A DNA stretch of 64,000 nt from a virus (IMGVR_UViG_3300037484_000445:1-64000); one strand, 5' to 3'. Positions 8,612-30,628 are shown, counted from the stretch's first letter. Made by a program: numbers and translations. The notes: generated by a model not told the origin, from the letters alone.

Positions 8612-8684
8612 GCGGGTAACTCCTCAACGGTGAGGTGCCACGTTGCCAACGTGGATTTGGCCGGTTCGATCCCGGTTACCCGCT
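8612..8684 (+). tRNA. tRNA-Gly(GCC)
   Basis: cloverleaf, TT GCC AA. Confidence 0.9.
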
Positions 8685-8686
8685 CT

Positions 8687-8848
8687 AGGGCACCCCCTAC
8701 GTGAAGCATACAAGCCTTTGTTGGTTCGACTCCAACCTTCCCCACTAGGACTTAGGTCCGATCTACGGGGAAGTCGCTCAATGGTAGAGCAGCGGAAATT
8801 GAAAATCCGTCTCGAAAGAGATTCTCCGCTTTACAACTCGGGTGCCCT
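8687..8848 (+). ncRNA. circularly permuted tRNA-like RNA with conserved module (element A)
   Basis: AGGGCACCC/GGGTGCCCT end stem; GTGAAGC/GCTTTAC; ATACAAGC; T arm, closed acceptor CTTCCCC/GGGGAAG, D arm, anticodon arm in that order. Confidence 0.85.
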
Positions 8849-8858
8849 TGACTTTTAC

Positions 8859-8931
8859 GCCCCTGTAGTCTAGAGGAAAGGCGTCCGCCTTCTAAGCGGA
8901 GTTCTCGCGGGTTCGAATCCTGCCAGGGGTA
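8859..8931 (+). tRNA. tRNA-Arg(TCT)
   Basis: cloverleaf, CT TCT AA. Confidence 0.9.
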
Positions 8932-10638: not shown

Positions 10639-10711
10639 GGGTCTTGAGCAAGTCTGGTGATTGCACTGGTCTGAAAAGCCAGCCAATACGGTTCGATTCC
10701 GTAAGGACCCA
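10639..10711 (+). tRNA. tRNA-Phe(GAA)
   Basis: cloverleaf, CT GAA AA. Confidence 0.88.
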
Positions 10712-10713
10712 CC

Positions 10714-10850
10714 GAGGGCACCCCCTCATCGTAAGCAAACAAGCACTTTGGGTTCGATTCCCAATTCCCCCTCTAGGACTTCGGTCCGATCATGGGGGAA
10801 AGCCCAGTGGTGGGCAGCAAAGTCATTCGCTTTCAAACTCGGGTGTTCTC
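10714..10850 (+). ncRNA. circularly permuted tRNA-like RNA (element B; no anticodon arm)
   Basis: GAGGGCACCC/GGGTGTTCTC; AAACAAGCA; T arm, TTCCCCC/GGGGGAA closed by a GGAC-TTCG-GTCC hairpin, D arm. Confidence 0.82.
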
Positions 10851-10854
10851 TTAT

Positions 10855-10927
10855 GCGAGCTAAGCCACAATGGCGTGGCACCTGCCTTCCAAGCAGGCCC
10901 AGACGGGTTCGATTCCCGTAGCTCGCT
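10855..10927 (+). tRNA. tRNA-Gly(TCC)
   Basis: cloverleaf, CT TCC AA. Confidence 0.9.
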
Positions 10928-11917: not shown

Positions 11918-11991
11918 GATCCACGACTCAGCTGGTAGACGAGGCAAGTCTGATAAACTTGTAGTGCAGAGTTCGATTCTCTGGTGGATCA
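11918..11991 (+). tRNA. tRNA-Ile(GAT)
   Basis: cloverleaf, CT GAT AA. Confidence 0.88.
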
Positions 11992-11993
11992 CT

Positions 11994-12150
11994 GAGTACC
12001 CCCTACGATAGATCAAACAAGCATTTGTGGGTTCGAGTCCCGCCTCCTGCTCTAGGGTGAAAGCCCAACATGCAGGAGTAGCCGAATGGTAAAGGCAATG
12101 GTTATCCAAACCGTGATTAGCATCACATCGATCTAGCAACTCGGGTACTC
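11994..12150 (+). ncRNA. circularly permuted tRNA-like RNA (element C)
   Basis: GAGTACCC/GGGTACTC; TAGATC/GATCTA; AAACAAGCA; T arm, CTCCTGC/GCAGGAG closed by a hairpin, D arm, anticodon arm (TA TCC AA). Confidence 0.87.
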
Positions 12151-12157
12151 TAACTAT

Positions 12158-12241
12158 GCTGGTGTGGCGGAACGGCAGACGCAGTTGGCTCAAACCCAAC
12201 CGGGGTTAACCCCCGTGAGAGTTCGAATCTCTCCATCAGTA
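12158..12241 (+). tRNA. tRNA-Leu(CAA)
   Basis: class II, CT CAA AC. Confidence 0.93.
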
Positions 12242-14603: not shown

Positions 14604-15341
14604 ATGACCACATTAGCTCAATTGCTGTCCGTTGAAGGGCAGACCAAGTCTTCTTCCAACGAGCAAATCACTGCTCAGTACCAGCTTCTGCAGAAGGAGC
14701 CTCTTCTCAACGGCGTTGCTCGCACCTACCAGCCATTGGAGGATGCCGGTGAGCGTCTGCCTCCAGAAGGCAACCAGGTTCAGGTGCGGGTCAAGGAAGT
14801 TCTTCGAGAGGTGGCTCGTGTGATGACGCCACTCTACGATCTCACTATCCAGAAGGACTCGGCTAACCAAGGCACTCGTGCTGACGTTGAGGTTGACGGC
14901 AAGGTCCTATTGAAGGATGCTCCCGCCACATATCTCTTGTGGTTGGAGAAGCAGTTGACGGATCTTCACACGGTGATCGTCAAGCTGCCGGTGCTTCCCC
15001 AGACTGAGTCTTGGGAACCAGACCCAACTCAGGCCGCTTACAAGACGCCCGTTGTCGAGACGTCTAGGACGAAGAAAATACCTCGTCCTCTCGAATTATC
15101 CCCGGCAACCAAAGAACATCCTGCTAAGGTTGAGTTGGTTCACGAGGACAAGATCGTAGGGTATTGGTCGACCGTGAAGTATTCGGGCGCCATTCCTCGC
15201 CAGCAGGCACAAGACCTGCGGGAACGAATTGAAAAGCTACAGGCAGCGGTGAAGTTCGCCCGTGAAAAGGCAAACACCATCACCGTGCCAAAGGTCGAAG
15301 CCGGGAACGCCATTTTTGGCTACCTGTTCTCTGACCTGTAA
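14604..15341 (+). CDS. helical/coiled-coil protein directly upstream of a large structured RNA; candidate RNA partner
   Basis: 245 aa, strong codon bias; RNA begins about 2 nt after the stop. Confidence 0.75.
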   Translation: MTTLAQLLSVEGQTKSSSNEQITAQYQLLQKEPLLNGVARTYQPLEDAGERLPPEGNQVQVRVKEVLREVARVMTPLYDLTIQKDSANQGTRADVEVDGKVLLKDAPATYLLWLEKQLTDLHTVIVKLPVLPQTESWEPDPTQAAYKTPVVETSRTKKIPRPLELSPATKEHPAKVELVHEDKIVGYWSTVKYSGAIPRQQAQDLRERIEKLQAAVKFAREKANTITVPKVEAGNAIFGYLFSDL

Positions 15342-17188: not shown

Positions 17189-17453
17189 GGCTTCGAGGCC
17201 GAAAGGAAAGGCACAGTCAAACGGAAACTGCTCCTCGAGAAGAGGGCTTAGTGGAGTAGGATCTGCACACGTTGACAGGGTGCTGCTCGGGTCAACCTCT
17301 ACAGATTCGAATTGGTTGAGGATTTGCGGATGCACCGGGCTGTGCCTCAACTGGTAACGGTTGGGGGTGGGCGGGAGTCGCCACAGCAGGGAAGCGCGTT
17401 TACCTCATCTCTTTGCACTTAGCATGCGGGTTCGAATCCCGTCGAAGCCGCCA
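17189..17453 (+). ncRNA. 265-nt RNA with tRNA ends and a large structured insert
   Basis: GGCTTCG/CGAAGCC+GCCA, D arm, T arm GCGGG-TTCGAAT-CCCGT, about 190 nt of hairpins between them. Confidence 0.72.
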
Positions 17454-17454
17454 T

Positions 17455-17529
17455 ATTGGAAACGCTCGTCGGCCGAGCAAGGTCTTCATAAGGCCTCGTT
17501 AGTGGGTTCGACTCCCACTTCCAATACCA
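17455..17529 (+). tRNA. tRNA-Met/Ile2(CAT)
   Basis: ATTGGAA/TTCCAAT, TT CAT AA, ACCA. Confidence 0.85.
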
Positions 17530-17592
17530 CCAAAAACACTACATCTCGCTCATCAATGAAGGTGAGCTATCCGTGGTGTATGGGAGGCTTAA

Positions 17593-19479
17593 ATGCCAAA
17601 TGTAGAGAACCTAGGGCCTGCTGAGCGAATCATCAACTCACTACTGACTTACACGGATCACCTTTTTCATGGGCGTCCGGGTATCGTTACGCCGGACACC
17701 ACACTGGCGACAGGTGCCAAGTGGCAGTTTGCCACCTATGTCGAGAATGCCGGCGTCAAGACGGTCTATGCTCTTCGTGAGAAGGGTCCAGTGACAAAGG
17801 TCGAGATTGCTGAGGGTAAGTCCTTGAAGATCAAGGGCACGGCTTTTGGTGTCCTCGACGCCGACGGCATCACCATCAAGGATCCTCGTGGCCGAAAGAT
17901 TGGTGAGTATCGTTCACCTGGCATCTTCAAGGAAGTTGCTACTTGGATGTTCCGTCAGGTCGCTGAGATCTGGAAGTTGGACAACGAGTTTGCTGCTCGT
18001 TGGGCATCTCACGCCTATGCTGAGGATCATCGAGACCTCAAGGTTATTCTGGCTTCGTTCATGCTGGTTCAGACCCGTAAGGGTGACCCCGTATTGGATG
18101 GGGGTAAGGTAGCTTTCCTTGATGAGGACTACCGTGATGTTGGCGAAGCCATGATCTTGCAGAATGGGGCTAAGTACCTGGATCTAAAGATGATCCTTAG
18201 GATTCTGGGGGTGCTAGAGCTTCCTGAGGTTGCGGCGATCGTGCGAGAGCTTGGATTTGGTAACTCGGCACGTAGTAAGTTCTTGGGCCGGTTCCCGAAG
18301 GTTGCTGAGAAGTGGCTTCGGTATCGAGAAGAGAACCCTCAGTTGCTGAAGGGCTTGATTAAGAGCGGTCAAAGGAGCTCGTTGAAGAGACTGGCTACAA
18401 CCGTTCGATACAAGCCGACCACGCCGAAGTTCTTCAAGGATTTGCGTTGGAAGCAGGTCCAGGCCAAGGACGGTCACCGTGGGCTTGCCATTGGCGAGGC
18501 TGTGAGTGCCGCCGAGACTTGGGCGGATCTACGTGAAGAGCAAATCTGCGAGAGGATTGTTCAGTCCAAGATGAACTTCAAGAGGATTGTTGGCCTTTTG
18601 CCGGAAGCTGTCGGACTTTCTCGTGCTGTTATGGCAGCTGCGATCGAGGCTGGTTCACTTTCGGATAAGGACTTGATCCTTTACACGCCGACGCTGGAAG
18701 AGCTTGGTCTGCTCAAGGTTCCAGCTATTCACGGGAAGTGGCAGTTGGCTCTTAAGGCTGCCGAAGACCAGAGGGCTGCTAACGTAGCTACTCGAGTCAA
18801 GGGCAAGGAAACCAAGGAACTACTGCAGGGTGCCGCAGACACGGCTATGCAAAAGGCTGTGGAAGAGGTAATCCGAGGTATGAGGGTCTACTTCATCGTA
18901 GACATCTCGGGCTCGATGGAAAACGCCATTGAGCAGGCCAAGGTCAACATCACCAAGTTCTTGCCGGGTTTCCCGCTCGACAAGATCCACGTTTCGGTCT
19001 TCAATACCTCCGGTCGGGAGATCGCCCTCAAGCATGCTACGGCGGCTGGGGTCGAGAATGCCTTCCGTGGTATCAAGGCCAGCGGTGGAACTAGCTACGG
19101 TGCAGGTGTCATGGCTCTCCATACACACAAGCCTAAGGCTGAAGAAGACGCCCTGTTCTTCTTCATTGGTGACGAGGAGGCCACCCCCTTTGCTCAGGAT
19201 GTAAGGATGTCGGGTATCAATCCGGTAGCCTTCGCTTTCATCAAGGTAAGGGTTAATGGCTACTCTGCTGTTAGGGATACGGCCCAGGCTCTGGGGATCC
19301 CTTGCATCATGGTGGACCAGAACACCTTTGAAGACCCGTATGCTATCCCTCGGACTATTCGCAACTTAATTGCGGCAACTCCTGTGGGACGTGCTCCGGC
19401 CAGGATCCAGCAGCGTGAAACGTTGGTAGACGTGATCCTTAAGACGCCTCTACTGACGAAGCCGGCTTGGGCGGCATAA
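17593..19479 (+). CDS. Ro60/TROVE-like helical protein with C-terminal vWA (MIDAS) domain
   Basis: VDISGSM, GGTSY, IGDEE MIDAS motifs; basic helical N-terminal 400 aa; vWA is firm, TROVE is inferred from architecture and RNA context. Confidence 0.65.
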   Translation: MPNVENLGPAERIINSLLTYTDHLFHGRPGIVTPDTTLATGAKWQFATYVENAGVKTVYALREKGPVTKVEIAEGKSLKIKGTAFGVLDADGITIKDPRGRKIGEYRSPGIFKEVATWMFRQVAEIWKLDNEFAARWASHAYAEDHRDLKVILASFMLVQTRKGDPVLDGGKVAFLDEDYRDVGEAMILQNGAKYLDLKMILRILGVLELPEVAAIVRELGFGNSARSKFLGRFPKVAEKWLRYREENPQLLKGLIKSGQRSSLKRLATTVRYKPTTPKFFKDLRWKQVQAKDGHRGLAIGEAVSAAETWADLREEQICERIVQSKMNFKRIVGLLPEAVGLSRAVMAAAIEAGSLSDKDLILYTPTLEELGLLKVPAIHGKWQLALKAAEDQRAANVATRVKGKETKELLQGAADTAMQKAVEEVIRGMRVYFIVDISGSMENAIEQAKVNITKFLPGFPLDKIHVSVFNTSGREIALKHATAAGVENAFRGIKASGGTSYGAGVMALHTHKPKAEEDALFFFIGDEEATPFAQDVRMSGINPVAFAFIKVRVNGYSAVRDTAQALGIPCIMVDQNTFEDPYAIPRTIRNLIAATPVGRAPARIQQRETLVDVILKTPLLTKPAWAA

Positions 19480-19556
19480 ATCGAAGTTTGAGGGGTCGGT
19501 TGCGTAAAACGTGACCGACCCTTTGCTTCATTACTTTTTAGGTGTATATACACCAC

Positions 19557-20513
19557 ATGTCTTGGCGCGATCTACTCCAGGCGGTTGATGAAACCCTGAG
19601 CTACCCGTGGACGGGTGGACGGACCCTTAGGGGATCCGATGATAGGCGCTTGACCGTTGAGGGCCGACTTCCTAGGGAGTATGGTTGGTGTACTTTCAAG
19701 GTTTTAGGACGTAAGGCTCGCTATACGTCTCCTGCGGAGCCTCAGCCTTTGGGATTCAAAGTTTTGGGTTACCTTGTGGGAGACCGCTTCATTTCGGATG
19801 GTGTTCGTGTTGACCCGGATCCCCAGACCATTGCTACCTTTTCTGAGCCGGTCCACATCTTGGAGGACGGTCTCGATCGATTCGTTAGAATATCCGCTGG
19901 CCGGATCTTTGACGACGGACCCCTGATCTACGATGCTCTGGAGATGCCTTTGGGGCCCGAGGAAGCGGTCCTGGAAGCCTTCTTGGACCAGAAACCATCC
20001 GTAAGCCACATTCCTGGCGTTGTACCGGCTCTAGACGCTGCTTTCAGGCTGGAGACCTATCAGAGAGTCGAGGCCGAGAGACGCCGCCTAGAAGAGGAAC
20101 GTAGGCTTCGGGAAGAGGGAGAGGCCCGGCAGAGAGAAGAGCGTCGCCAGGAGCTGATCAAGCAACTGGGAGACGGCCGAGGGCGAAGGGCTCTGGCTGC
20201 CCAAGACTTTGGCACTGCGGCACGGGCGGCTTTGGCCATTGGCGGGGCCGAGTATCTGGATCACCGTCGCTCTGTCAATCGTGGTGAAATGGTCGTCAGG
20301 TTTAGGCTCAATCACCGTCGGTTCGAGTGCGTTTGTGCTGAAAGGACCCTTGCCATCATTGACTCGGGAATCTGTCTCACGGCTCACTACGATGATCCGA
20401 ACTTTACCGGCGGTACGAAAGGAGACGGCTGGTTCACCTTGGAAAGTCTACCTTCGGTAATTCTCGAGGCAGAGAGGCTAGGCCGCTTGGTGGTGTATAG
20501 ACACGTGGACTAG
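19557..20513 (+). CDS. putative E2-like (UBC-fold) conjugating enzyme with central coiled coil
   Basis: IIDSGICL (cf. E2 G.ICL catalytic Cys) followed by WFTLESLPSVI; next to JAB/Ubl/E1. Confidence 0.6.
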   Translation: MSWRDLLQAVDETLSYPWTGGRTLRGSDDRRLTVEGRLPREYGWCTFKVLGRKARYTSPAEPQPLGFKVLGYLVGDRFISDGVRVDPDPQTIATFSEPVHILEDGLDRFVRISAGRIFDDGPLIYDALEMPLGPEEAVLEAFLDQKPSVSHIPGVVPALDAAFRLETYQRVEAERRRLEEERRLREEGEARQREERRQELIKQLGDGRGRRALAAQDFGTAARAALAIGGAEYLDHRRSVNRGEMVVRFRLNHRRFECVCAERTLAIIDSGICLTAHYDDPNFTGGTKGDGWFTLESLPSVILEAERLGRLVVYRHVD

Positions 20514-20521
20514 GAGACCCT

Positions 20522-20911
20522 ATGCAAGAAGCCGGTGTGTTGGTAGACTTTCGAGGCAACCCGATTTATTGGCATCTGCCAGCAAATCGGGGAACGATAG
20601 TTTTGCCCGATAGTCGAGATCTTTGGAAAGCCTTCGAGGAAAAACGTGACAGGGTTTATGGGTACGCCCATAGTCATCCTGGATCCGGGATGCCCGCGGC
20701 TTCAGCCGAAGATATCACGAGCTTTTCTGCAATTGAGAGAGGCCTTGGGCGTCGACTAGTCTGGTGGATTGCTACGGCCACAGACGTCAAACACTACTTG
20801 TGGCGAGGCCCTGACGAGTACCTTTATCGGGGTTACGCAGACACTATGGTTCCTCATGGCTTTGCTTGGTTGGATGAGCTTAGGAACCTTTCACACTACG
20901 ATGGGAGATGA
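20522..20911 (+). CDS. JAB/MPN (JAMM) metalloprotease, deubiquitinase-like
   Basis: N-terminal EAGVL, HSHPGSGMPAASAED (HxH-x7-S-x2-D). Confidence 0.9.
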   Translation: MQEAGVLVDFRGNPIYWHLPANRGTIVLPDSRDLWKAFEEKRDRVYGYAHSHPGSGMPAASAEDITSFSAIERGLGRRLVWWIATATDVKHYLWRGPDEYLYRGYADTMVPHGFAWLDELRNLSHYDGR

Positions 20912-21168
20912 ATATGGAAGACTTTGAAGCACGGGTAAACGTTACATACATGGGCGCCAACGGAGATCTTCCGGACCCTGTGAAGTACGACGCCACGGAT
21001 GCCGAGATCCTTGGTTGGGTAACGGAAGCCATTCGTACTGGCGGTGTCCCTGGTATTCCGGAAGACGCTAACGCCAACCTGACGGATTTCGTTGTCGATC
21101 GGTTTGGTCCTAGCGAACCGACTCCGTACAACCGCCTGATGGTGCGTCCCAAGACGCCCTTCGGTTGA
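20908..21168 (+). CDS. ubiquitin-like (beta-grasp) protein
   Basis: 86 aa, ends RPKTPFG with a C-terminal Gly; lies between JAB and E1. Confidence 0.75.
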   Translation: MNMEDFEARVNVTYMGANGDLPDPVKYDATDAEILGWVTEAIRTGGVPGIPEDANANLTDFVVDRFGPSEPTPYNRLMVRPKTPFG

Positions 21169-21186
21169 ACACCTTGCGAGGGTACC

Positions 21187-21762
21187 ATGGCCTTGATTAC
21201 AATTGTTGGTGTAGGAGCTCTTGGGTCACACGTGGCTCAATTCCTCCGAAACGCGGAAGCTGAGATCAAAGTCATCGACTTCGATCGTATTGAGACCAAG
21301 AACACGAAGTCTCAATTTCATAGCTCGCCCAACGTGGGCAAGCTCAAGGCGCCCTCGCTTCAGCAGACCTTGAACTTCTTGTTCAAGACGAAAATCACAG
21401 TGGTTTCTCACAAGCTGGTTGATGACAACGTCAATCAGCTTTTGGGTGGATCCAACCTCGTGATCGACTGCTTGGATAACGGTACAGCTCGGAGATTGGT
21501 CCAAACATTCTCTCGTGCTCAAGGAATCCCGTGCTTGCACGGGGCTTTGGCTGCGGATGGAGCTTTTGGTCAAGTTCTCTGGACTGAGCACTTTCGAATC
21601 GACGATGAGGTGGGTGCGGGGGCGGCGACCTGCGAAGATGGAGCTCATCTTCCGTTCATCGCCTTGGTCTCCAGCCTCATGGCACAGTCAGCTCAGACGT
21701 TCCTGCGAAGCGGGAAGAAGTTGAATTTTCAAATACATCCGACGGGCGTAATCTCCGTCTGA
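21187..21762 (+). CDS. E1-like ThiF/MoeB adenylyltransferase
   Basis: VGVGALGS, IDFDRIETKN, DCLDN..R, ATCED (candidate catalytic Cys). Confidence 0.92.
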   Translation: MALITIVGVGALGSHVAQFLRNAEAEIKVIDFDRIETKNTKSQFHSSPNVGKLKAPSLQQTLNFLFKTKITVVSHKLVDDNVNQLLGGSNLVIDCLDNGTARRLVQTFSRAQGIPCLHGALAADGAFGQVLWTEHFRIDDEVGAGAATCEDGAHLPFIALVSSLMAQSAQTFLRSGKKLNFQIHPTGVISV

Positions 21763-21834
21763 TTTTCTCTCGACATCGATTCGAGGTCGGTGTATACAAG
21801 GACTGCAGCTGGGGAATGCTTCCCCAGCACTCAC

Positions 21835-21967
21835 GGCGGATACGAGGCATGGGCCTCACCAGACACATAATCTGGATGCGAAAGCATCACTGCCTAGCGT
21901 CTCGGTCCCGCAAGGGACCCTTAGTTTAGGCCTACAAGCACACTTGGTTCGATTCCAAGATCCGCCA
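21835..21967 (+). ncRNA. tRNA-ended RNA with module in the variable loop (element H; paralog of F)
   Basis: GGCGGAT/ATCCGCC, CCAGA-CACATAA-TCTGG, GGTCCC-GCAA-GGGACC, CTACAAGCA, T arm. Confidence 0.82.
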
Positions 21968-21969
21968 CC

Positions 21970-22120
21970 TGGCTTCACTCCCACGTAGAGATCAAACACG
22001 CATCTGTTGGTTCGAGTCCAACTTTTTCCGTCACAAACTGGAAAAATAGCCTAACTGGTAAAGGCAATCGTCTGAAACACGATCAATTGTACTACCGGTC
22101 TCAACACTCGAGTGAAGTCA
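21970..22120 (+). ncRNA. circularly permuted tRNA-like RNA (element D)
   Basis: TGGCTTCACTC/GAGTGAAGTCA; GAGATC/GGTCTC; AAACACGCA; T arm, TTTTTCC/GGAAAAA, D arm, anticodon arm CT GAA AC. Confidence 0.85.
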
Positions 22121-22126
22121 AACTAA

Positions 22127-22251
22127 CCCGGTAAAAGGGCAATGGCAGCCCACCTGTTTTAGGGATAGGCATAGTCGCTCGGACGACTCGACCTCGCAAG
22201 GGGTCTCCAGAACGAGCATACAAGCATGTGGTTCGAATCCACATACCGGGA
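22127..22251 (+). ncRNA. tRNA-ended RNA with module in the variable loop (element I)
   Basis: CCCGGTA/TACCGGG, D arm, loop TT TAG GG, GCTCG..ACTC-GACCTC-GCAA-GGGGTC..CGAGC-ATACAAGCA, T arm. Confidence 0.82.
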
Positions 22252-22252
22252 C

Positions 22253-22386
22253 TGAGGGTCACCCCCTCTAGTATACATACAAGCAAACTAGCTCAGTCGG
22301 TAGAGCATCCGCCTCATAAGCAGAACGTCGTCGGTTCAAATCCGACATTTGCACCTTTAGTCGTATACTTTCTCGGGTGACCTTCA
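22253..22386 (+). ncRNA. module enclosing a normal-order tRNA(CAT)-like body (element E)
   Basis: TGAGGGTCACCC/GGGTGACCTTCA; GTATAC/GTATAC; ATACAAGCA; D, anticodon (CT CAT AA) and T arms. Confidence 0.83.
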
Positions 22387-22418: not shown

Positions 22419-22451
22419 ACGAAGCCGTCTCACAGGGCGGCTTCGTCTTTT
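22419..22451 (+). terminator. intrinsic terminator-like hairpin
   Basis: ACGAAGCCGTCT..GGGCGGCTTCGT followed by CTTTT. Confidence 0.55.
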
Positions 22452-22521
22452 CCGGGATCATCCAACGGCAGGATGCCGGCCTTTGAAGCCGAGAATCATG
22501 GTTCGAGTCCATGTCCCGGAA
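22451..22521 (+). tRNA. tRNA-Gln(TTG)
   Basis: cloverleaf, CT TTG AA. Confidence 0.92.
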
Positions 22522-27474: not shown

Positions 27475-28071
27475 ATGGAGATGAACATGGTCAAGCTAAG
27501 TGAGTTGAATCTTTTATCCTTTGGCCATACTATCCAGATGGCCGGTGCTATCTTTCAAGGAGAAGGACAAACCTTCCTGGCATTCTTTCCTGAGGACGCC
27601 GACAACCAAGATCATGTCCTCAACCGTTTGGAGTTGAGTCTGGATGATTGGAACGCGATCATTCGGCAGACAGACCTCTTAGAGACCGAGATCTTGGCGA
27701 GGGCGGCTGATGGCACGCTCACCAAGGTGGTCATCCGTAAGAGTCAGCGGCAAATAGAACAAGGGGTTTCTTGGAAGGTCTTCAAGCGTGACGGCTATAG
27801 CTGTCGCTACTGCGGTAAGGACGACATACCCCTCACGGTGGACCATTTGGTTTGCTGGGAAGCCGGCGGCCCAAGCATTGTCGAGAACCTTGTATCGGCT
27901 TGTCGCAAGTGCAACAAGACTCGAGGGGATCTTTCCTATGCAGATTGGTTGAACCATCCGTACTACAGGAAGGTCGCTTCAGGCTTGAGTGCTTCTGAAC
28001 GTGAGGCTAATATCCAGTTGTTGCAAACTCTGGGTTCTATCCCTCTGAACGTGCATAAACGGTCCCGCTAG
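27475..28071 (+). CDS. HNH endonuclease-domain protein
   Basis: RDGYSCRYCG..LTVDHL..GG..NLVSACRKCN. Confidence 0.9.
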   Translation: MEMNMVKLSELNLLSFGHTIQMAGAIFQGEGQTFLAFFPEDADNQDHVLNRLELSLDDWNAIIRQTDLLETEILARAADGTLTKVVIRKSQRQIEQGVSWKVFKRDGYSCRYCGKDDIPLTVDHLVCWEAGGPSIVENLVSACRKCNKTRGDLSYADWLNHPYYRKVASGLSASEREANIQLLQTLGSIPLNVHKRSR

Positions 28072-28137
28072 TGGGATCAGAAGGGACCCCTGACGAGGGT
28101 CTTCAAATCATGAGAAAAAAGAAACGGTAAGGGTACC

Positions 28138-28731
28138 ATGGACACGCGGACACTCATTCTTAACCAGTTCTACAGGCCCCATGAAATTGTCGATTGGAAG
28201 GTCGCTGTCACCCGGATGTTCTCAGGAAAACTGGAAGTTCTAGTCCAGTACGACGAGGTCATTGCGCATATCGATCGGCAAACCTTGACGACGTTCCCAG
28301 ACCTTCAGAAGTCCCTACGACAGGTGATAGGATCAGAAGCTGAGAGCTTCGATATCAAGGTGCCTGCCGTAGCCGTACTTCGTCGTAATATCGGCCGAAT
28401 GAAGACAGGGATCAAGTATGGTAAGAAGAACGTCTGTCTGCGTGATGAATTCACTTGCCAATACTGCGGTCACAAGTTTCCCATGAGTCAGCTGAATCAG
28501 GATCACGTCACGCCGAAGTCCAGAGGTGGTAAGACCGTATGGACGAACATTGTGATGTCTTGTTACCCTTGCAACGAGAAGAAGGCTAATAGGACCCCTG
28601 AAGAGGCGGGAATGAGGCTTCTGTCCAAGCCTGTCAAGCCGAAGGTCTTGCCGATGGGTGAACCCTTCATCGACATTCAGCAGGCGCCGCCCGAGTGGGA
28701 GCCTTACATAGACCTTAGGGTTGTTGCCTAA
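28138..28731 (+). CDS. HNH endonuclease (McrA-like)
   Basis: RDEFTCQYCG..DHVTPKSRGG..WTNIVMSCYPCN.KK. Confidence 0.93.
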   Translation: MDTRTLILNQFYRPHEIVDWKVAVTRMFSGKLEVLVQYDEVIAHIDRQTLTTFPDLQKSLRQVIGSEAESFDIKVPAVAVLRRNIGRMKTGIKYGKKNVCLRDEFTCQYCGHKFPMSQLNQDHVTPKSRGGKTVWTNIVMSCYPCNEKKANRTPEEAGMRLLSKPVKPKVLPMGEPFIDIQQAPPEWEPYIDLRVVA

Positions 28732-28830: not shown

Positions 28831-29128
28831 TCTTAGCCGTTGGTCGGTCTGTGAACCTTTCCCCCACAGGCATCACAGGGCAAGAGGGTGTCACGGTCTT
28901 CCAGTCTTGGTAAGCCGCAGAATCATTCGACTTTGTGACGCTCTTCTATGGATATCCACACCTAACACAGTTCAACGAAAGAATTTCTTGATGCTGTTGA
29001 GTTCTCGGTGTATAGCTGTCCTTGAAGGATCGCGCTCACGCTTGGATCTTTCAAGGAAACCTAGGAGTGCAGGCCTATACCTGTACCGTACAGCTAAACG
29101 CACCCGTAAGGGTTTGGTAAGGCTGAGG
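28831..29128 (+). ncRNA. candidate multibranch structured RNA of about 300 nt
   Basis: closing TCTTAGCC/GGCTGAGG and several long internal helices in an intergenic region. Confidence 0.45.
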
Positions 29129-29215
29129 ACATCGACCCAGGAACGCAATAGATTTGGGACCCGTCCAGTCCGCGTCAATTGCAAACCCCCTCGAATGTGT
29201 ACGGAGGAATCTCCT

Positions 29216-30628
29216 ATGGAGTTTCTAGCCCAGCTCTCTCATGAGACATTGGATCATTCTCGCTCGAATACCCCTCACCTTGTCCTTACCCTAAAGGCTC
29301 CGGCCTTGGATTGGATCAAGAAGAGGCCCTCACTTTGCGTCGTGCCTGCGGTAGACCTTTCAGGCTCAATGAGAGGGGACAAGCTGGAGTATGCTCGGAA
29401 GAGCTTGCATAAGCTCGTTGACCAGCTACAGCCTGGAGATGTCACGGGCCTAGTTGCCTTCGAAAGTCGAGTCCATCTCTTGGTTCAACCAGCTGAGGTG
29501 ACCGCGGCTCATAAGTCTCGGATGAAGGACGCTATCAACCGCTTGAAGATCATGGGTGGTACGGATCTCTGTGGTGGGGCCCTTCAGGCACTCGAAGTAG
29601 TGAAGGGTTTGGACTTGCCAGCCAAGTTCATCAAGCGGGTTATTCTGTTCACGGATGGTCAACCCACGGATGGGGTCACCAACCCCGATCAGATCTTGAG
29701 TTTGGTTGAAAGCAATCGCGGATCGGTTACTCTTAGTGCCTTTGGCTACGGGGCCATCGGGGGTGGAACTTGGGGTGGCTGTGATCCCGAGTTTATGGAG
29801 AATCTATCCCAGCGTGGTCAAGGGAACTATGCCTTCATACAGGACCCTGATAGCGCTCTGACGGCGTTTGGTCGGGAGCTTGGAGGGTTGATGTCCACCT
29901 ACGCCCAAGACCTTCTTGTGACGATTGAGCCTTTGAATGGCCATAGGGTCAGCAAGGTCCTTACCGATGTTCCCGTCGACCGTAACGCCTTAGGAGAGAT
30001 CGAGTTCAAGGTTTCGGACATCATGTCTGAGGAAACCCGACACTTCGTATTCGAGACCGAACTAATTCCAGGTAAGAGTGGTCCTCGGGCTGTGAATTTG
30101 TTCAATGTGCGACTCGTGTATTCTGCCCTTACGGATAAGGGTACTCGGGAAACAAAAACCCTTGAAACGAAGGCTAAGGCTCAGTTCGTCAATCCCGGTG
30201 AAGAACAGAAAGATCCCAGTAAGGCTTTGGATGAGGTCATAGCCTTAGCACAGGTCTTTAGGGCTCAGATCGAGGCCGAAGAACAAGCTAAGAAGGGCAA
30301 CTATGTTGGAGCCGTTGAGACGATGAGCGTGGTCTCTAAGGGGTTCCAGCAACGTGGTCTCATGGCAGCAAACAAGGTTGCCCAGAATATAGGCACTCGT
30401 CTTGGAGACGCCAACCTTTATGCCAGCAACACCTCCTACTTGAGGAGCATGTCGTCGGGGGGTCGCCGGTCTTACGGTCTCAACTCGGCAGATGCTGAAG
30501 CCCAGGGCGATCTTGAGATGATTCTAGGTTCCCTAGGCAATGATGCCATCAACACCATGTCCGCAGAATTTGCGTCCAATGAGCCTAAACCTTCTTTGAA
30601 GGTCGATATCCCGAACAAGTCAGACTAA
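29216..30628 (+). CDS. vWA domain protein (YfbK/CLCA-like)
   Basis: VDLSGSM, GGTDL, LFTDGQP, G.GNY.FI; GGAGG SD before ATG 29216. Confidence 0.9.
   Translation: MEFLAQLSHETLDHSRSNTPHLVLTLKAPALDWIKKRPSLCVVPAVDLSGSMRGDKLEYARKSLHKLVDQLQPGDVTGLVAFESRVHLLVQPAEVTAAHKSRMKDAINRLKIMGGTDLCGGALQALEVVKGLDLPAKFIKRVILFTDGQPTDGVTNPDQILSLVESNRGSVTLSAFGYGAIGGGTWGGCDPEFMENLSQRGQGNYAFIQDPDSALTAFGRELGGLMSTYAQDLLVTIEPLNGHRVSKVLTDVPVDRNALGEIEFKVSDIMSEETRHFVFETELIPGKSGPRAVNLFNVRLVYSALTDKGTRETKTLETKAKAQFVNPGEEQKDPSKALDEVIALAQVFRAQIEAEEQAKKGNYVGAVETMSVVSKGFQQRGLMAANKVAQNIGTRLGDANLYASNTSYLRSMSSGGRRSYGLNSADAEAQGDLEMILGSLGNDAINTMSAEFASNEPKPSLKVDIPNKSD

What the first reader, a model, noticed from the sequence alone, without database searches (positions are those of the whole stretch)
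17593..22386. Phage operon: Ro60/TROVE-like vWA + E2 + JAB + Ubl + E1, followed by four tRNA-mimic RNAs - candidate RNA-baited ubiquitin-like tagging system
Seen: five co-directional genes, i.e. a helical+vWA protein (DISGSM MIDAS), an E2-like protein (DSGICL), JAMM (HSH..S..D), an 86-aa protein ending in Gly, and a ThiF/E1. Four module-bearing RNAs start 73 nt after the E1 stop and lie in tandem. Known: E1-E2-Ubl-JAB sets form bacterial conjugation systems (e.g. Bil-type anti-phage), Ro60 has TROVE+vWA architecture and binds Y RNAs, and host anticodon nucleases target tRNAs during infection. Inference: the Ro-like protein may hold the tRNA decoys and serve as an RNA-guided adaptor (E3-like) so that host tRNA-attacking or tRNA-binding proteins are captured and Ubl-modified. 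Here the conjugation cassette would be on the phage side.
Basis: partly seen in the sequence, partly recalled or inferred. Interest (0 to 1): 0.94.

Follow-up and report, generated by a model that had tools for sequence, protein, structure and literature searches.

The report
Ro60-like RNA particle with ubiquitin-like module
A 452-kb phage keeps five genes (a probable Ro60-like RNA-binding protein, a new cysteine protein, a trimming protease, a small ubiquitin-like protein and its activating enzyme) next to four tRNA-shaped RNAs, a link between an RNA particle and protein tagging that I found in no paper I could search.

Summary
Window 17593-21762 holds five co-directional genes, and four structured tRNA-like RNAs begin 73 nt after the E1 stop.

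- **Conservation.** The same five genes occur in the same order in about 50 of 60 huge-phage loci and in MAG contigs, mostly Myxococcota. A covariance model of the permuted-tRNA RNA finds a strong copy downstream of E1 in 25 of 39 usable loci, including loci with no tRNA array.
- **Well supported.** The ThiF-type E1 and the JAMM peptidase keep their catalytic motifs. The ubiquitin-like protein always carries ...RPKTPFG, followed by 0-61 extra residues. The six loci with no JAB gene found, in three clades, all have a protein that ends exactly at the Gly, so JAB probably trims the precursor.
- **Moderately supported.** The 628-aa protein resembles Ro60: the best Foldseek matches in two libraries are Ro60/TROVE proteins, but TM-scores are low and no sequence profile matches.
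- **Not supported.** The "E2" has one invariant cysteine, but no UBC fold or family match was found.
- **Untested.** The decoy-and-tag mechanism remains inference.

This scan has already noted the same module in at least 36 other genomes. I found no paper describing it.

The parts
17593..19479 (+). 628-aa protein: N-terminal beta domain, helical domain (about residues 110-427) and C-terminal vWA domain with a complete MIDAS. Probable Ro60/TROVE-like RNA-binding protein.
   Evidence: AF2 model pLDDT 84.8. Foldseek top PDB hits are Ro60/Rsr/phiLo Ro60, E 8e-9 to 3e-6 over more than 500 columns, TM 0.2-0.26. Top BFVD hits include Ro-like, TROVE and DUF2828 proteins. vWA domain Z 14. ESM features nearest to TROVE/DUF2828, score 0.83. 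No Pfam TROVE match.
19557..20513 (+). 318-aa protein: OB-like beta barrels, a long charged helix, and a C-terminal helix / four-strand / helix domain with a single invariant Cys273 (D-x-G-[IV]-C-L). Candidate thioester carrier; E2 identity unproven.
   Evidence: AF2 model pLDDT 83. Best Foldseek E 0.025 and best VIA Z 4.7, with no UBC hit. Invariant Cys. 445 clusters at 50% identity, all with the same architecture. Starts 10-90 nt after the vWA gene in many loci.
20522..20911 (+). 129-aa JAMM/MPN+ metallopeptidase. Probably trims the Ubl precursor after Gly and may also deconjugate.
   Evidence: Prok-JAB 21.2 bits, below the 25-bit cut-off. E3, H50, H52, S61 and D64 conserved in at least 95% of 53 sequences. 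JAB presence tracks Ubl C-terminal extensions.
20908..21168 (+). 86-aa ubiquitin-like candidate ending ...RPKTPFG. Its start overlaps the JAB stop.
   Evidence: R80, P81, K82, F85 and G86 conserved in at least 95% of 55 homologues. 0-61 residues follow the Gly in other phages. No Pfam or PDB sequence match. The fold was not predicted.
21187..21762 (+). 191-aa minimal ThiF/MoeB-type E1 adenylating enzyme.
   Evidence: Pfam ThiF 83.9 bits. NCBIfam ThiF 71 bits, MoeB and UbaA lower, all below equivalog cut-offs. GxGALGSH, D31, D33, N39, Q43, K54, D94 and T148-C149-E150 conserved in at least 95% of 48 sequences.
21835..21968 (+). RNA-1: cloverleaf tRNA-like RNA with open acceptor end (…ACC), CAU in the anticodon-loop position, and a roughly 60-nt variable-arm insert carrying the CUCGG motif and a GCAA hairpin.
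   Evidence: Fold -56.6 kcal/mol, z -4.45. Same design in the other loci. Not called by ARAGORN or Rfam.
21971..22119 (+). RNA-2: circularly permuted tRNA-like RNA (T arm, sealed acceptor stem, D arm, anticodon-like arm) closed by a 5'/3' helix with the CUCGR motif. YrlA-like order.
   Evidence: Covariance model R1 121.7 bits. 24 of 26 pairs covary in 17 sequences. Partial Rfam tRNA hit of 27.8 bits at 22040-22094.
22127..22254 (+). RNA-3: second RNA-1-type tRNA-like RNA with a long variable-arm insert (ACUCGA plus GCAA hairpin).
   Evidence: Fold -48.1 kcal/mol, z -3.25.
22253..22386 (+). RNA-4: tRNA-Met-like body (22282-22355) clamped by a long outer helix that carries UCUCGG.
   Evidence: ARAGORN and Rfam tRNA, 51 bits with a shortened acceptor stem. 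Fold -44.9 kcal/mol, z -5.0.
22419..22452 (+). Probable intrinsic terminator (12-bp GC-rich hairpin plus UCUUUU) closing the unit.
   Evidence: -25.6 kcal/mol, z -3.9. The pattern scan missed it.

Best explanation
This is a conserved huge-phage module that joins two things. One is a Ro60-like ribonucleoprotein: a helical-plus-vWA/MIDAS protein with its own tRNA-shaped RNAs. The other is a small ubiquitin-like protein system.

Proposed steps:
1. The Ubl is made either mature or with a short to long tail after ...PFG.
2. The JAMM peptidase trims it to expose the Gly.
3. The minimal ThiF-type E1 adenylates that Gly, probably forming a thioester on Cys149.
4. The Ubl is then attached to a protein, either directly as in E2-less SAMP/TtuB systems or through the invariant Cys273 of the OB/coiled-coil protein encoded right after the vWA gene.
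5. The Ro60-like protein binds the tRNA-like RNAs through their shared CUCGR helix module and gives the tagging reaction its place or its target.

Shown here: the genes, their motifs, the synteny, the RNA structures, and the link between JAB presence and Ubl tails. Inferred: RNA binding, thioester transfer, the nature of the target, and the purpose. The purpose is probably control or protection of the phage's translation and tRNA apparatus during infection.
For: - Same five genes in the same order in about 50 of 60 viral loci at 42-63% identity, despite variable inserts.
- In three high-GC MAG loci the five genes sit back to back within 4 kb.
- Strong R1 RNA within 1 kb after E1 in 24 of 39 loci with enough flank. 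32 of 43 strong hits lie in the 2 kb after E1. This holds in L063 and L077, which have no tRNA genes.
- Ubl...RPKTPFG with 0-61 extra residues.
- All 6 loci with no JAB gene found, in 3 separate clades, have a Ubl ending exactly at Gly. 41 of 48 loci with JAB have a tail.
- Catalytic motifs of E1 and JAB are conserved in at least 95% of sequences.
- One invariant Cys in the 318-aa protein.
- Ro60/TROVE proteins are the top structural matches in PDB and BFVD and the nearest ESM clusters.
- RNA-2 has the T / acceptor-stem / D order of YrlA (PMC4201824).
- A terminator-like hairpin follows the fourth RNA.
Against: - No sequence profile links the 628-aa protein to TROVE: Pfam 0 of 34 members, and hhalign of the N-domain gives E 0.13-0.18. 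Foldseek TM is only 0.2-0.26.
- No E2/UBC match for the 318-aa protein.
- The Ubl fold was not predicted, and its tail is FG rather than GG.
- Synteny within one viral clade can be inherited rather than functional, and in many phages unrelated genes sit between the five.
- Similar RNAs also lie elsewhere in the tRNA array (window 8682, 10710, 11988).
- 14 of 39 loci show no strong R1 copy after E1.
- No experiment exists.
Confidence: 0.55

Rival explanations
1. Sulphur-carrier pathway. The E1 adenylates the small protein, which becomes a thiocarboxylate and donates sulphur for thiolation of the phage's tRNAs or tRNA-like RNAs, as Urm1/Uba4, SAMP2/UbaA and TtuB/TtuC do. The invariant cysteine of the 318-aa protein would relay the sulphur, and its OB-like part would hold the RNA.
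For: The E1 scores best against ThiF, MoeB and UbaA models. The module sits among 48 tRNA genes and tRNA-like RNAs. Known E2-less Ubl systems serve tRNA thiolation (PMC2948915, listed; established knowledge of TtuB/TtuC and Urm1). The 318-aa protein has weak OB/S1-like matches.
Against: The phage genome has no PP-loop thiolase (PF01171, PF03054) and no cysteine desulfurase (PF00266), although each family was found in all 14 control genomes. Known sulphur carriers end in GG, whereas this one ends in FG. The E1 has no rhodanese domain. Long and variable precursor tails are more typical of protein modifiers.
Confidence: 0.15
2. Two separate modules that merely travel together: a Ro60-like particle with its RNAs, and an unrelated Ubl/JAB/E1 set (for example for virion assembly, like lambda tail proteins I and K), kept adjacent by inherited gene order in one phage clade.
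For: Unrelated genes are inserted between the five in many loci; for example, L002 has 3 kb between the cysteine protein and JAB. The JAB's best PHROG match is a tail protein family. All loci belong to one family with 42-63% identity.
Against: The order survives many independent insertions. In three high-GC loci the five genes are contiguous with gaps of 9-60 nt. The RNAs follow E1 rather than the vWA gene, so the two halves are interleaved. No locus with enough flank shows the vWA gene without the 318-aa gene.
Confidence: 0.15
3. One reading: the RNAs are decoys for host tRNA-cleaving defence nucleases, and the Ro60-like protein acts as an E3-like adaptor so that captured nucleases are Ubl-tagged and neutralised.
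For: The RNAs keep tRNA elbows, and some keep anticodon-like arms with variable loops. The module is phage-borne. The phage also carries RtcB, a tRNA repair ligase.
Against: Nothing here identifies a target. In high-GC MAG loci with few or no tRNAs the module may be chromosomal, which would not fit a purely counter-defence role. No E3-like domain was detected.
Confidence: 0.1

Closest known systems
Ro60 (Rsr) with Y RNAs: Salmonella and Mycobacterium YrlA/YrlB, Deinococcus Yrn1, Thermus phage phiLo Ro60 with Yrl1/Yrl2 (PMC4201824, PMC12135203)
   Same: A helical domain followed by a vWA/MIDAS domain. tRNA-mimicking RNAs encoded on the same strand within a few kb. RNA-2 has the T arm / sealed acceptor stem / D arm order of YrlA and is closed by a terminal helix. 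Found in phages.
   Different: No Pfam TROVE or Rfam YrlA match. An extra N-terminal beta domain. Low global structural overlap. RNA-2 keeps an anticodon-like arm. Two of the RNAs have open tRNA ends with the extra module placed in the variable arm. No known Ro60 locus includes Ubl, E1 and JAB genes.
E2-independent prokaryotic Ubl systems: archaeal SAMP1-3/UbaA/HvJAMM1 and Thermus TtuB/TtuC with a JAMM peptidase
   Same: A small protein with a C-terminal Gly, a single-domain ThiF/MoeB-type E1, a JAMM peptidase, and a functional tie to tRNA.
   Different: The tail is FG, not GG. The precursors have tails of up to 61 residues. No thiolase partner is present. The set is coupled to a vWA protein, a new Cys protein and non-coding RNAs, and is phage-encoded.
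Bacterial anti-phage Ubl conjugation operons (Bil: BilA-D; Bub; type II CBASS Cap2/Cap3)
   Same: A gene set of Ubl, JAB-type peptidase and E1, plus a Cys-bearing candidate carrier.
   Different: PADLOC models match only the E1 adenylation domain (49 bits) and weakly the JAB; none matches the Ubl or the 318-aa protein. The E1 is far smaller. The module is on the phage side and tied to RNAs.
Lambda and T1 tail assembly pair TAPI (Ubl) and TAPK (JAB plus NlpC/P60) (PMC1779556)
   Same: A phage-encoded Ubl with a conserved C-terminal Gly followed by extra sequence, next to a JAB peptidase predicted to release it.
   Different: The tail assembly pair has no E1. It sits among tail genes, not among tRNA genes.

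Membership tests
Ro60/TROVE | Match to the TROVE sequence profile (Pfam PF05731) | tested here: not met
   0 of 34 family members match at E up to 10. No match anywhere in the 452-kb genome, although the control genomes responded. hhalign of the N-domain against 14 myxobacterial TROVE proteins gives E 0.13-0.18.
Ro60/TROVE | Helical-repeat domain followed by a vWA domain with MIDAS | tested here: met
   AF2 model: helices from about residue 113 to 427, then vWA 430-595. vWA Z 14.2, rmsd 3.3, 159 residues aligned. D437, S439, S441, T500 and D527 invariant.
Ro60/TROVE | Overall fold like solved Ro60 (closed ring) | tested here: inconclusive
   Ro60/Rsr/phiLo Ro60 are ranks 1-10 in PDB Foldseek, E 8e-9 to 3e-6 over 529-561 columns, but TM is 0.19-0.26 and rmsd 15-18. 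BFVD gives the same picture. ESM features score 0.83, which is only a lead. Model pTM is only 0.51.
Ro60/TROVE | Y RNA partner encoded nearby on the same strand | tested here: met
   RNA-2 has the T / acceptor-stem / D order and a terminal helix, starting about 210 nt after the E1 stop and 2.5 kb after the vWA gene. It gives no hit to Rfam YrlA at E up to 10.
Ro60/TROVE | Binds Y RNA and misfolded RNA | not testable with these tools
   Needs pull-down or structure.
E2/UBC | UBC or Prok-E2 sequence profile | tested here: not met
   No UQ_con or Prok-E2 family among the matches of 30 members at E up to 10. No NCBIfam or PADLOC match.
E2/UBC | UBC fold | tested here: inconclusive
   No UBC chain among the Foldseek hits (best E 0.025) or among the 50 best VIA-align rows listed, out of 48,161 representative chains (best Z 4.7). 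One RWD-domain chain scores Z 3.9 over 216-306. The C-terminal domain was not folded on its own.
E2/UBC | Invariant catalytic Cys in a loop after the beta-meander | tested here: met
   C273 is invariant in the 30- and 42-sequence alignments and kept in all 63 distinct domain sequences; C258, C260 and H277 are not. There is no HPN motif.
JAMM/MPN+ peptidase | E ... HxH ... S..D metal site | tested here: met
   E3, H50, H52, S61 and D64 conserved in at least 95% of 53 sequences. Pfam Prok-JAB scores 21.2 bits, below the 25-bit cut-off.
E1 / ThiF-MoeB adenylyltransferase | ThiF profile above cut-off, nucleotide loop, Mg-binding Asp, Cys in the crossover loop | tested here: met
   ThiF 83.9 bits against 28.1. 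GxGALGSH, D94 and T148-C149-E150 conserved in at least 95% of 48 sequences. It is below every NCBIfam equivalog cut-off, so it belongs to no named subfamily.
Ubiquitin-like beta-grasp modifier | Conserved C-terminal Gly exposed by processing | tested here: met
   The ...RPKTPFG core is conserved in at least 95% of 55 sequences. 0-61 residues follow in different phages, and tail presence tracks JAB presence.
Ubiquitin-like beta-grasp modifier | Beta-grasp fold | not tested
No Pfam or PDB sequence match.
Bil / Bub / CBASS type II defence operons | Matches to the system's own protein models | tested here: not met
   PADLOC gives only E1-domain matches (at most 49 bits) and a weak JAB match (16.9 bits). 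The Ubl and the 318-aa protein match nothing.

The most novel reading that the evidence does not exclude
The module is an RNA-directed tagging machine of a new kind. The Ro60-like ring, loaded with tRNA-shaped guide or bait RNAs, would choose what the ubiquitin-like protein is attached to. The boldest version is that the activated Gly is transferred onto the free 3' end of the open-ended tRNA-like RNAs (RNA-1 and RNA-3), giving a protein-RNA conjugate analogous to an aminoacyl-tRNA.
Probability: 0.12. Interest if true: 0.95.

Novelty: new variant of a known kind. Interest (0 to 1): 0.78.

Why it matters
Ro60-Y RNA particles and ubiquitin-like tagging are each well studied, but I found no paper that connects them. 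Searches combining Ro60 or TROVE with ThiF, JAB or ubiquitin-like terms returned nothing relevant.

A module that is kept across hundreds of huge-phage lineages, and that places a tagging system beside an RNA particle, points to a new way for a virus to manage tRNA or translation factors. It would also give the long-unexplained vWA/MIDAS site of Ro60 a testable partner.

The system is small, five proteins and four RNAs, and could be rebuilt in vitro.

Tried and rejected
- **TROVE by sequence profile.** The full-length hhalign match (E 3e-4) is matched by the vWA halves alone (E 3e-4). The N-domain alone is not significant.
- **PDB profile searches.** The vWA family and the Ubl family gave only vWA hits or noise.
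- **VIA-align second look at the 628-aa model.** It listed only vWA domains.
- **ESM Atlas for the 318-aa protein.** No usable hit.
- **Profile search of the Cys domain against 1.84 billion proteins.** It returned only the same family (445 clusters), with no bridge to known E2s.
- **Fetching Prok-E2 families for a profile comparison.** PF14461 gave 0 and PF14462 gave 1 match in 201 Myxococcota genomes, so I dropped this.
- **Search for longer, fused forms of the vWA protein (1100 aa or more).** None found, which is weak evidence. Fusions of 700-1000 aa were not specifically sought.
- **Are the MAG contigs phage or chromosome?** A window protein and a terminase family gave nothing, and the terminase model also missed the phage itself. 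GC content and tRNA counts are mixed. Unresolved.
- **Promoter and terminator pattern scan.** Counts were at shuffle level.
- **Megablast against phage records.** No match.
- **ORF 17361-17624 (87 aa).** It overlaps tRNA-Met 17455-17529 and has no family match, so I treated it as spurious.

Full report
**Setting.** The window is the first 64 kb of a 451,925-bp IMG/VR virus record that CheckV rates 94% complete. It carries 48 tRNA genes and a tmRNA between 7.5 and 27.4 kb, all on the + strand. It also encodes replication genes, a chaperonin and a ribonucleotide reductase. This is a huge phage. Megablast finds no close record among 50,697 phage genomes. By protein search, only the uncultured Virus Rctr197k matches the 628-aa protein, at 56% identity.

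**Observation.**
- 17593-19479 encodes 628 aa with VDISGSM.
- 19557-20513 encodes 318 aa with IIDSGICL. Homologues show that the ATG at 19557 is the start.
- 20522-20911 encodes a JAMM peptidase.
- 20908-21168 encodes 86 aa ending RPKTPFG.
- 21187-21762 encodes a 191-aa ThiF protein.
- RNA-1 begins at 21835, which is 73 nt after the E1 stop.

**Conservation of the gene set.** The 628-aa and 318-aa proteins each have more than 1,100 relatives at E 0.001 or better, at 58-67% identity. Many lie on contigs of 300-660 kb, and none carries a functional name.

I fetched 60 viral loci around homologues of the 628-aa protein. In these, tblastn finds the order vWA, Cys protein, JAB, Ubl, E1 in about 50. 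The exceptions are mostly loci cut off by the contig end. Unrelated genes are often inserted between the five, yet the order holds, even in the most distant locus (L049, 42% identity).

Eighteen further loci come from MAGs, mostly labelled Myxococcota. In three high-GC loci with no tRNA genes (L063, L076, L077) the five genes sit back to back within 4 kb. I could not settle whether these contigs are chromosomal or mis-binned phage DNA.

**The ubiquitin-like part.**
- *E1.* It clears the Pfam ThiF cut-off (83.9 bits against 28.1). It keeps the nucleotide loop, the Mg-binding Asp and a Thr-Cys-Glu in the crossover region in at least 95% of 48 sequences. It scores best against ThiF, MoeB and UbaA models but below every equivalog cut-off.
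- *JAB.* It keeps E...HxH...S..D.
Its family signature is still telling. The ...RPKTPFG core is conserved in at least 95% of 55 sequences. It is followed by nothing in some phages, by 1-14 residues in most, and by 32-61 residues in four.
- *JAB tracks the Ubl tail.* In all six loci where no JAB gene was found, the protein ends exactly at the Gly. In 41 of 48 loci with JAB it carries a tail (Fisher p 7e-5, not corrected for relatedness). On a tree of the vWA proteins the six JAB-less loci form three separate pairs, each next to JAB-bearing relatives. This is the pattern expected if JAB matures the precursor. A JAB gene lying outside the fetched flank cannot be excluded.

**The "E2".** The AF2 model (pLDDT 83) shows OB-like beta barrels, a long charged helix, and a C-terminal domain of two helices, four strands, a loop and a helix.
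- Cys273 in D-x-G-[IV]-C-L is the only cysteine kept in all 63 distinct sequences. C258, C260 and H277 vary, which argues against a zinc site and for a reactive cysteine.
- Nothing ties the domain to UBC. There is no Pfam, NCBIfam, PADLOC or Atlas match. The best Foldseek E-value is 0.025, to S1/OB proteins. The best VIA-align Z is 4.7 against 48,161 chains.
- A profile of the Cys domain, run against 1.84 billion proteins, found 445 clusters, all with the same architecture.

The E2 reading therefore rests on one cysteine and a compatible topology. Known SAMP and TtuB systems conjugate without any E2, so a missing E2 would not break the model.

**The Ro60-like protein.** The AF2 model (pLDDT 84.8, pTM 0.51) has a beta-rich N-terminus, a helical domain and a vWA domain.
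- The vWA domain is secure: Z 14.2, with a fully invariant MIDAS.
- For the whole protein, the ten best PDB matches by Foldseek are all Ro60, Rsr or the Thermus phage phiLo Ro60. E-values are 8e-9 to 3e-6 over 529-561 columns, ahead of every vWA-only protein. TM-scores are only 0.19-0.26.
- The BFVD viral library gives the same ranking: Ro-like protein of Gordonia phage VanLee, TROVE proteins and DUF2828 proteins.
- Language-model features of residues 1-428 alone are nearest to TROVE and DUF2828 clusters. The score of 0.83 is a lead, not proof.
- Against this, no sequence profile sees TROVE. In my hhalign test the helical domain alone was not significant.

I rate "Ro60-like architecture" as likely, and "member of the TROVE family" as unproven.

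**The RNAs.**
- RNA-1 and RNA-3 are cloverleaves with open acceptor ends and a large insert in the variable arm.
- RNA-2 is a circularly permuted tRNA: T arm, sealed acceptor stem, D arm and an anticodon-like arm, closed by a helix between its ends.
- RNA-4 is a tRNA-Met-like body clamped by a long outer helix.
- Each carries a CUCGR motif beside a helix.

Seventeen RNA-2 copies from 13 sources align with 24 of 26 predicted pairs showing compensatory changes. The T / acceptor-stem / D order is the order described for YrlA, the Y RNA bound by bacterial Ro60 (PMC4201824). Rfam's YrlA model does not match.

A covariance model (R1) finds a copy scoring 60 bits or more downstream of E1 in 25 of 39 non-redundant loci with at least 1 kb of flank; 24 of these lie within 1 kb. 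Of 43 strong hits in the loci, 32 lie in the 2 kb after E1. L063 and L077 have no tRNA genes, yet they keep the RNA 100-270 nt after E1. The link is therefore not a by-product of sitting in a tRNA array.

A 12-bp hairpin with a U tract follows RNA-4 at 22419-22452.

**Weighing the readings.**
- *Best supported.* A real Ubl/JAB/E1 system works together with a Ro60-like particle and its tRNA-shaped RNAs.
- *Sulphur-carrier rival.* It is serious, because E2-less Ubl systems serve tRNA thiolation. However, the phage has no PP-loop thiolase and no desulfurase, and the tail is FG rather than GG.
- *Two unrelated modules in inherited synteny.* This remains possible. It fits poorly with the contiguous five-gene loci and with RNAs that follow E1 rather than the vWA gene.

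**Novelty.** Phage Ro60 with Y-like RNAs is known (PMC4201824, PMC12135203). A comparative review of jumbo phages lists TROVE proteins only as RNA-repair platforms (PMC7824862). None of my searches found a paper joining Ro60 or TROVE to ThiF, JAB or a Ubl.

Earlier notes of this scan describe the same module in at least 36 other genomes and reach similar conclusions. These are unchecked AI notes and not independent evidence. One of them was later marked as having partly failed.

Noticed in passing
L065, L067, L068, L070, L071, L080 against the other loci: No JAB gene was found in these six loci, which fall into three separate clades. In each, the Ubl ends exactly at the conserved Gly. Elsewhere the Ubl mostly has a tail of 1-61 residues.
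   Followed up: yes
L063, L076, L077 (MAG contigs, GC 0.69-0.73): The five genes are contiguous within 4 kb, with no tRNA genes nearby. Most MAG hits are labelled Myxococcota, which hints at the host range or at chromosomal copies. Whether these contigs are phage or chromosome was not resolved.
   Followed up: partly
window 8682-8863, 10710-10864, 11988-12166: Three more copies of the permuted-tRNA RNA (R1 scores 64-90 bits) lie inside the tRNA array, away from the five genes.
   Followed up: no
L002:9935-10879 (+), Virus Rctr197k KX853510: The homologue of the 318-aa Cys protein is not annotated in the public record. A minus-strand CDS is annotated over part of it, and the vWA homologue is only a misc_feature.
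   Followed up: partly
L107:1489-2208 (-), G000 284145-284840: A second, canonical ThiF/MoeB-type gene (217 bits) lies elsewhere in the phage. It sits next to a DUF4419 gene and small ORFs with no family match.
   Followed up: partly
L106, G000 303693-304952 (-): The phage encodes an RtcB RNA ligase (280 bits). In bacteria RtcB is often encoded with Ro60 and Y RNAs, but here it lies 280 kb away.
   Followed up: no
window 28907-30628: A second vWA-domain protein (573 aa, Pfam VWA 53.6 bits) lies just past the tmRNA and two HNH endonuclease genes (27475-28731).
   Followed up: no
L023:7124-7420, L026:12269-12565, L047:12157-12537: Some Ubl precursors have C-terminal tails with CxxC motifs, which look like small zinc ribbons. 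Some 318-aa proteins end in strongly acidic tails (L005, L011, L013, L058).
   Followed up: no
window 14604-15341: A DUF7873 protein (305 bits) lies inside the tRNA array.
   Followed up: no
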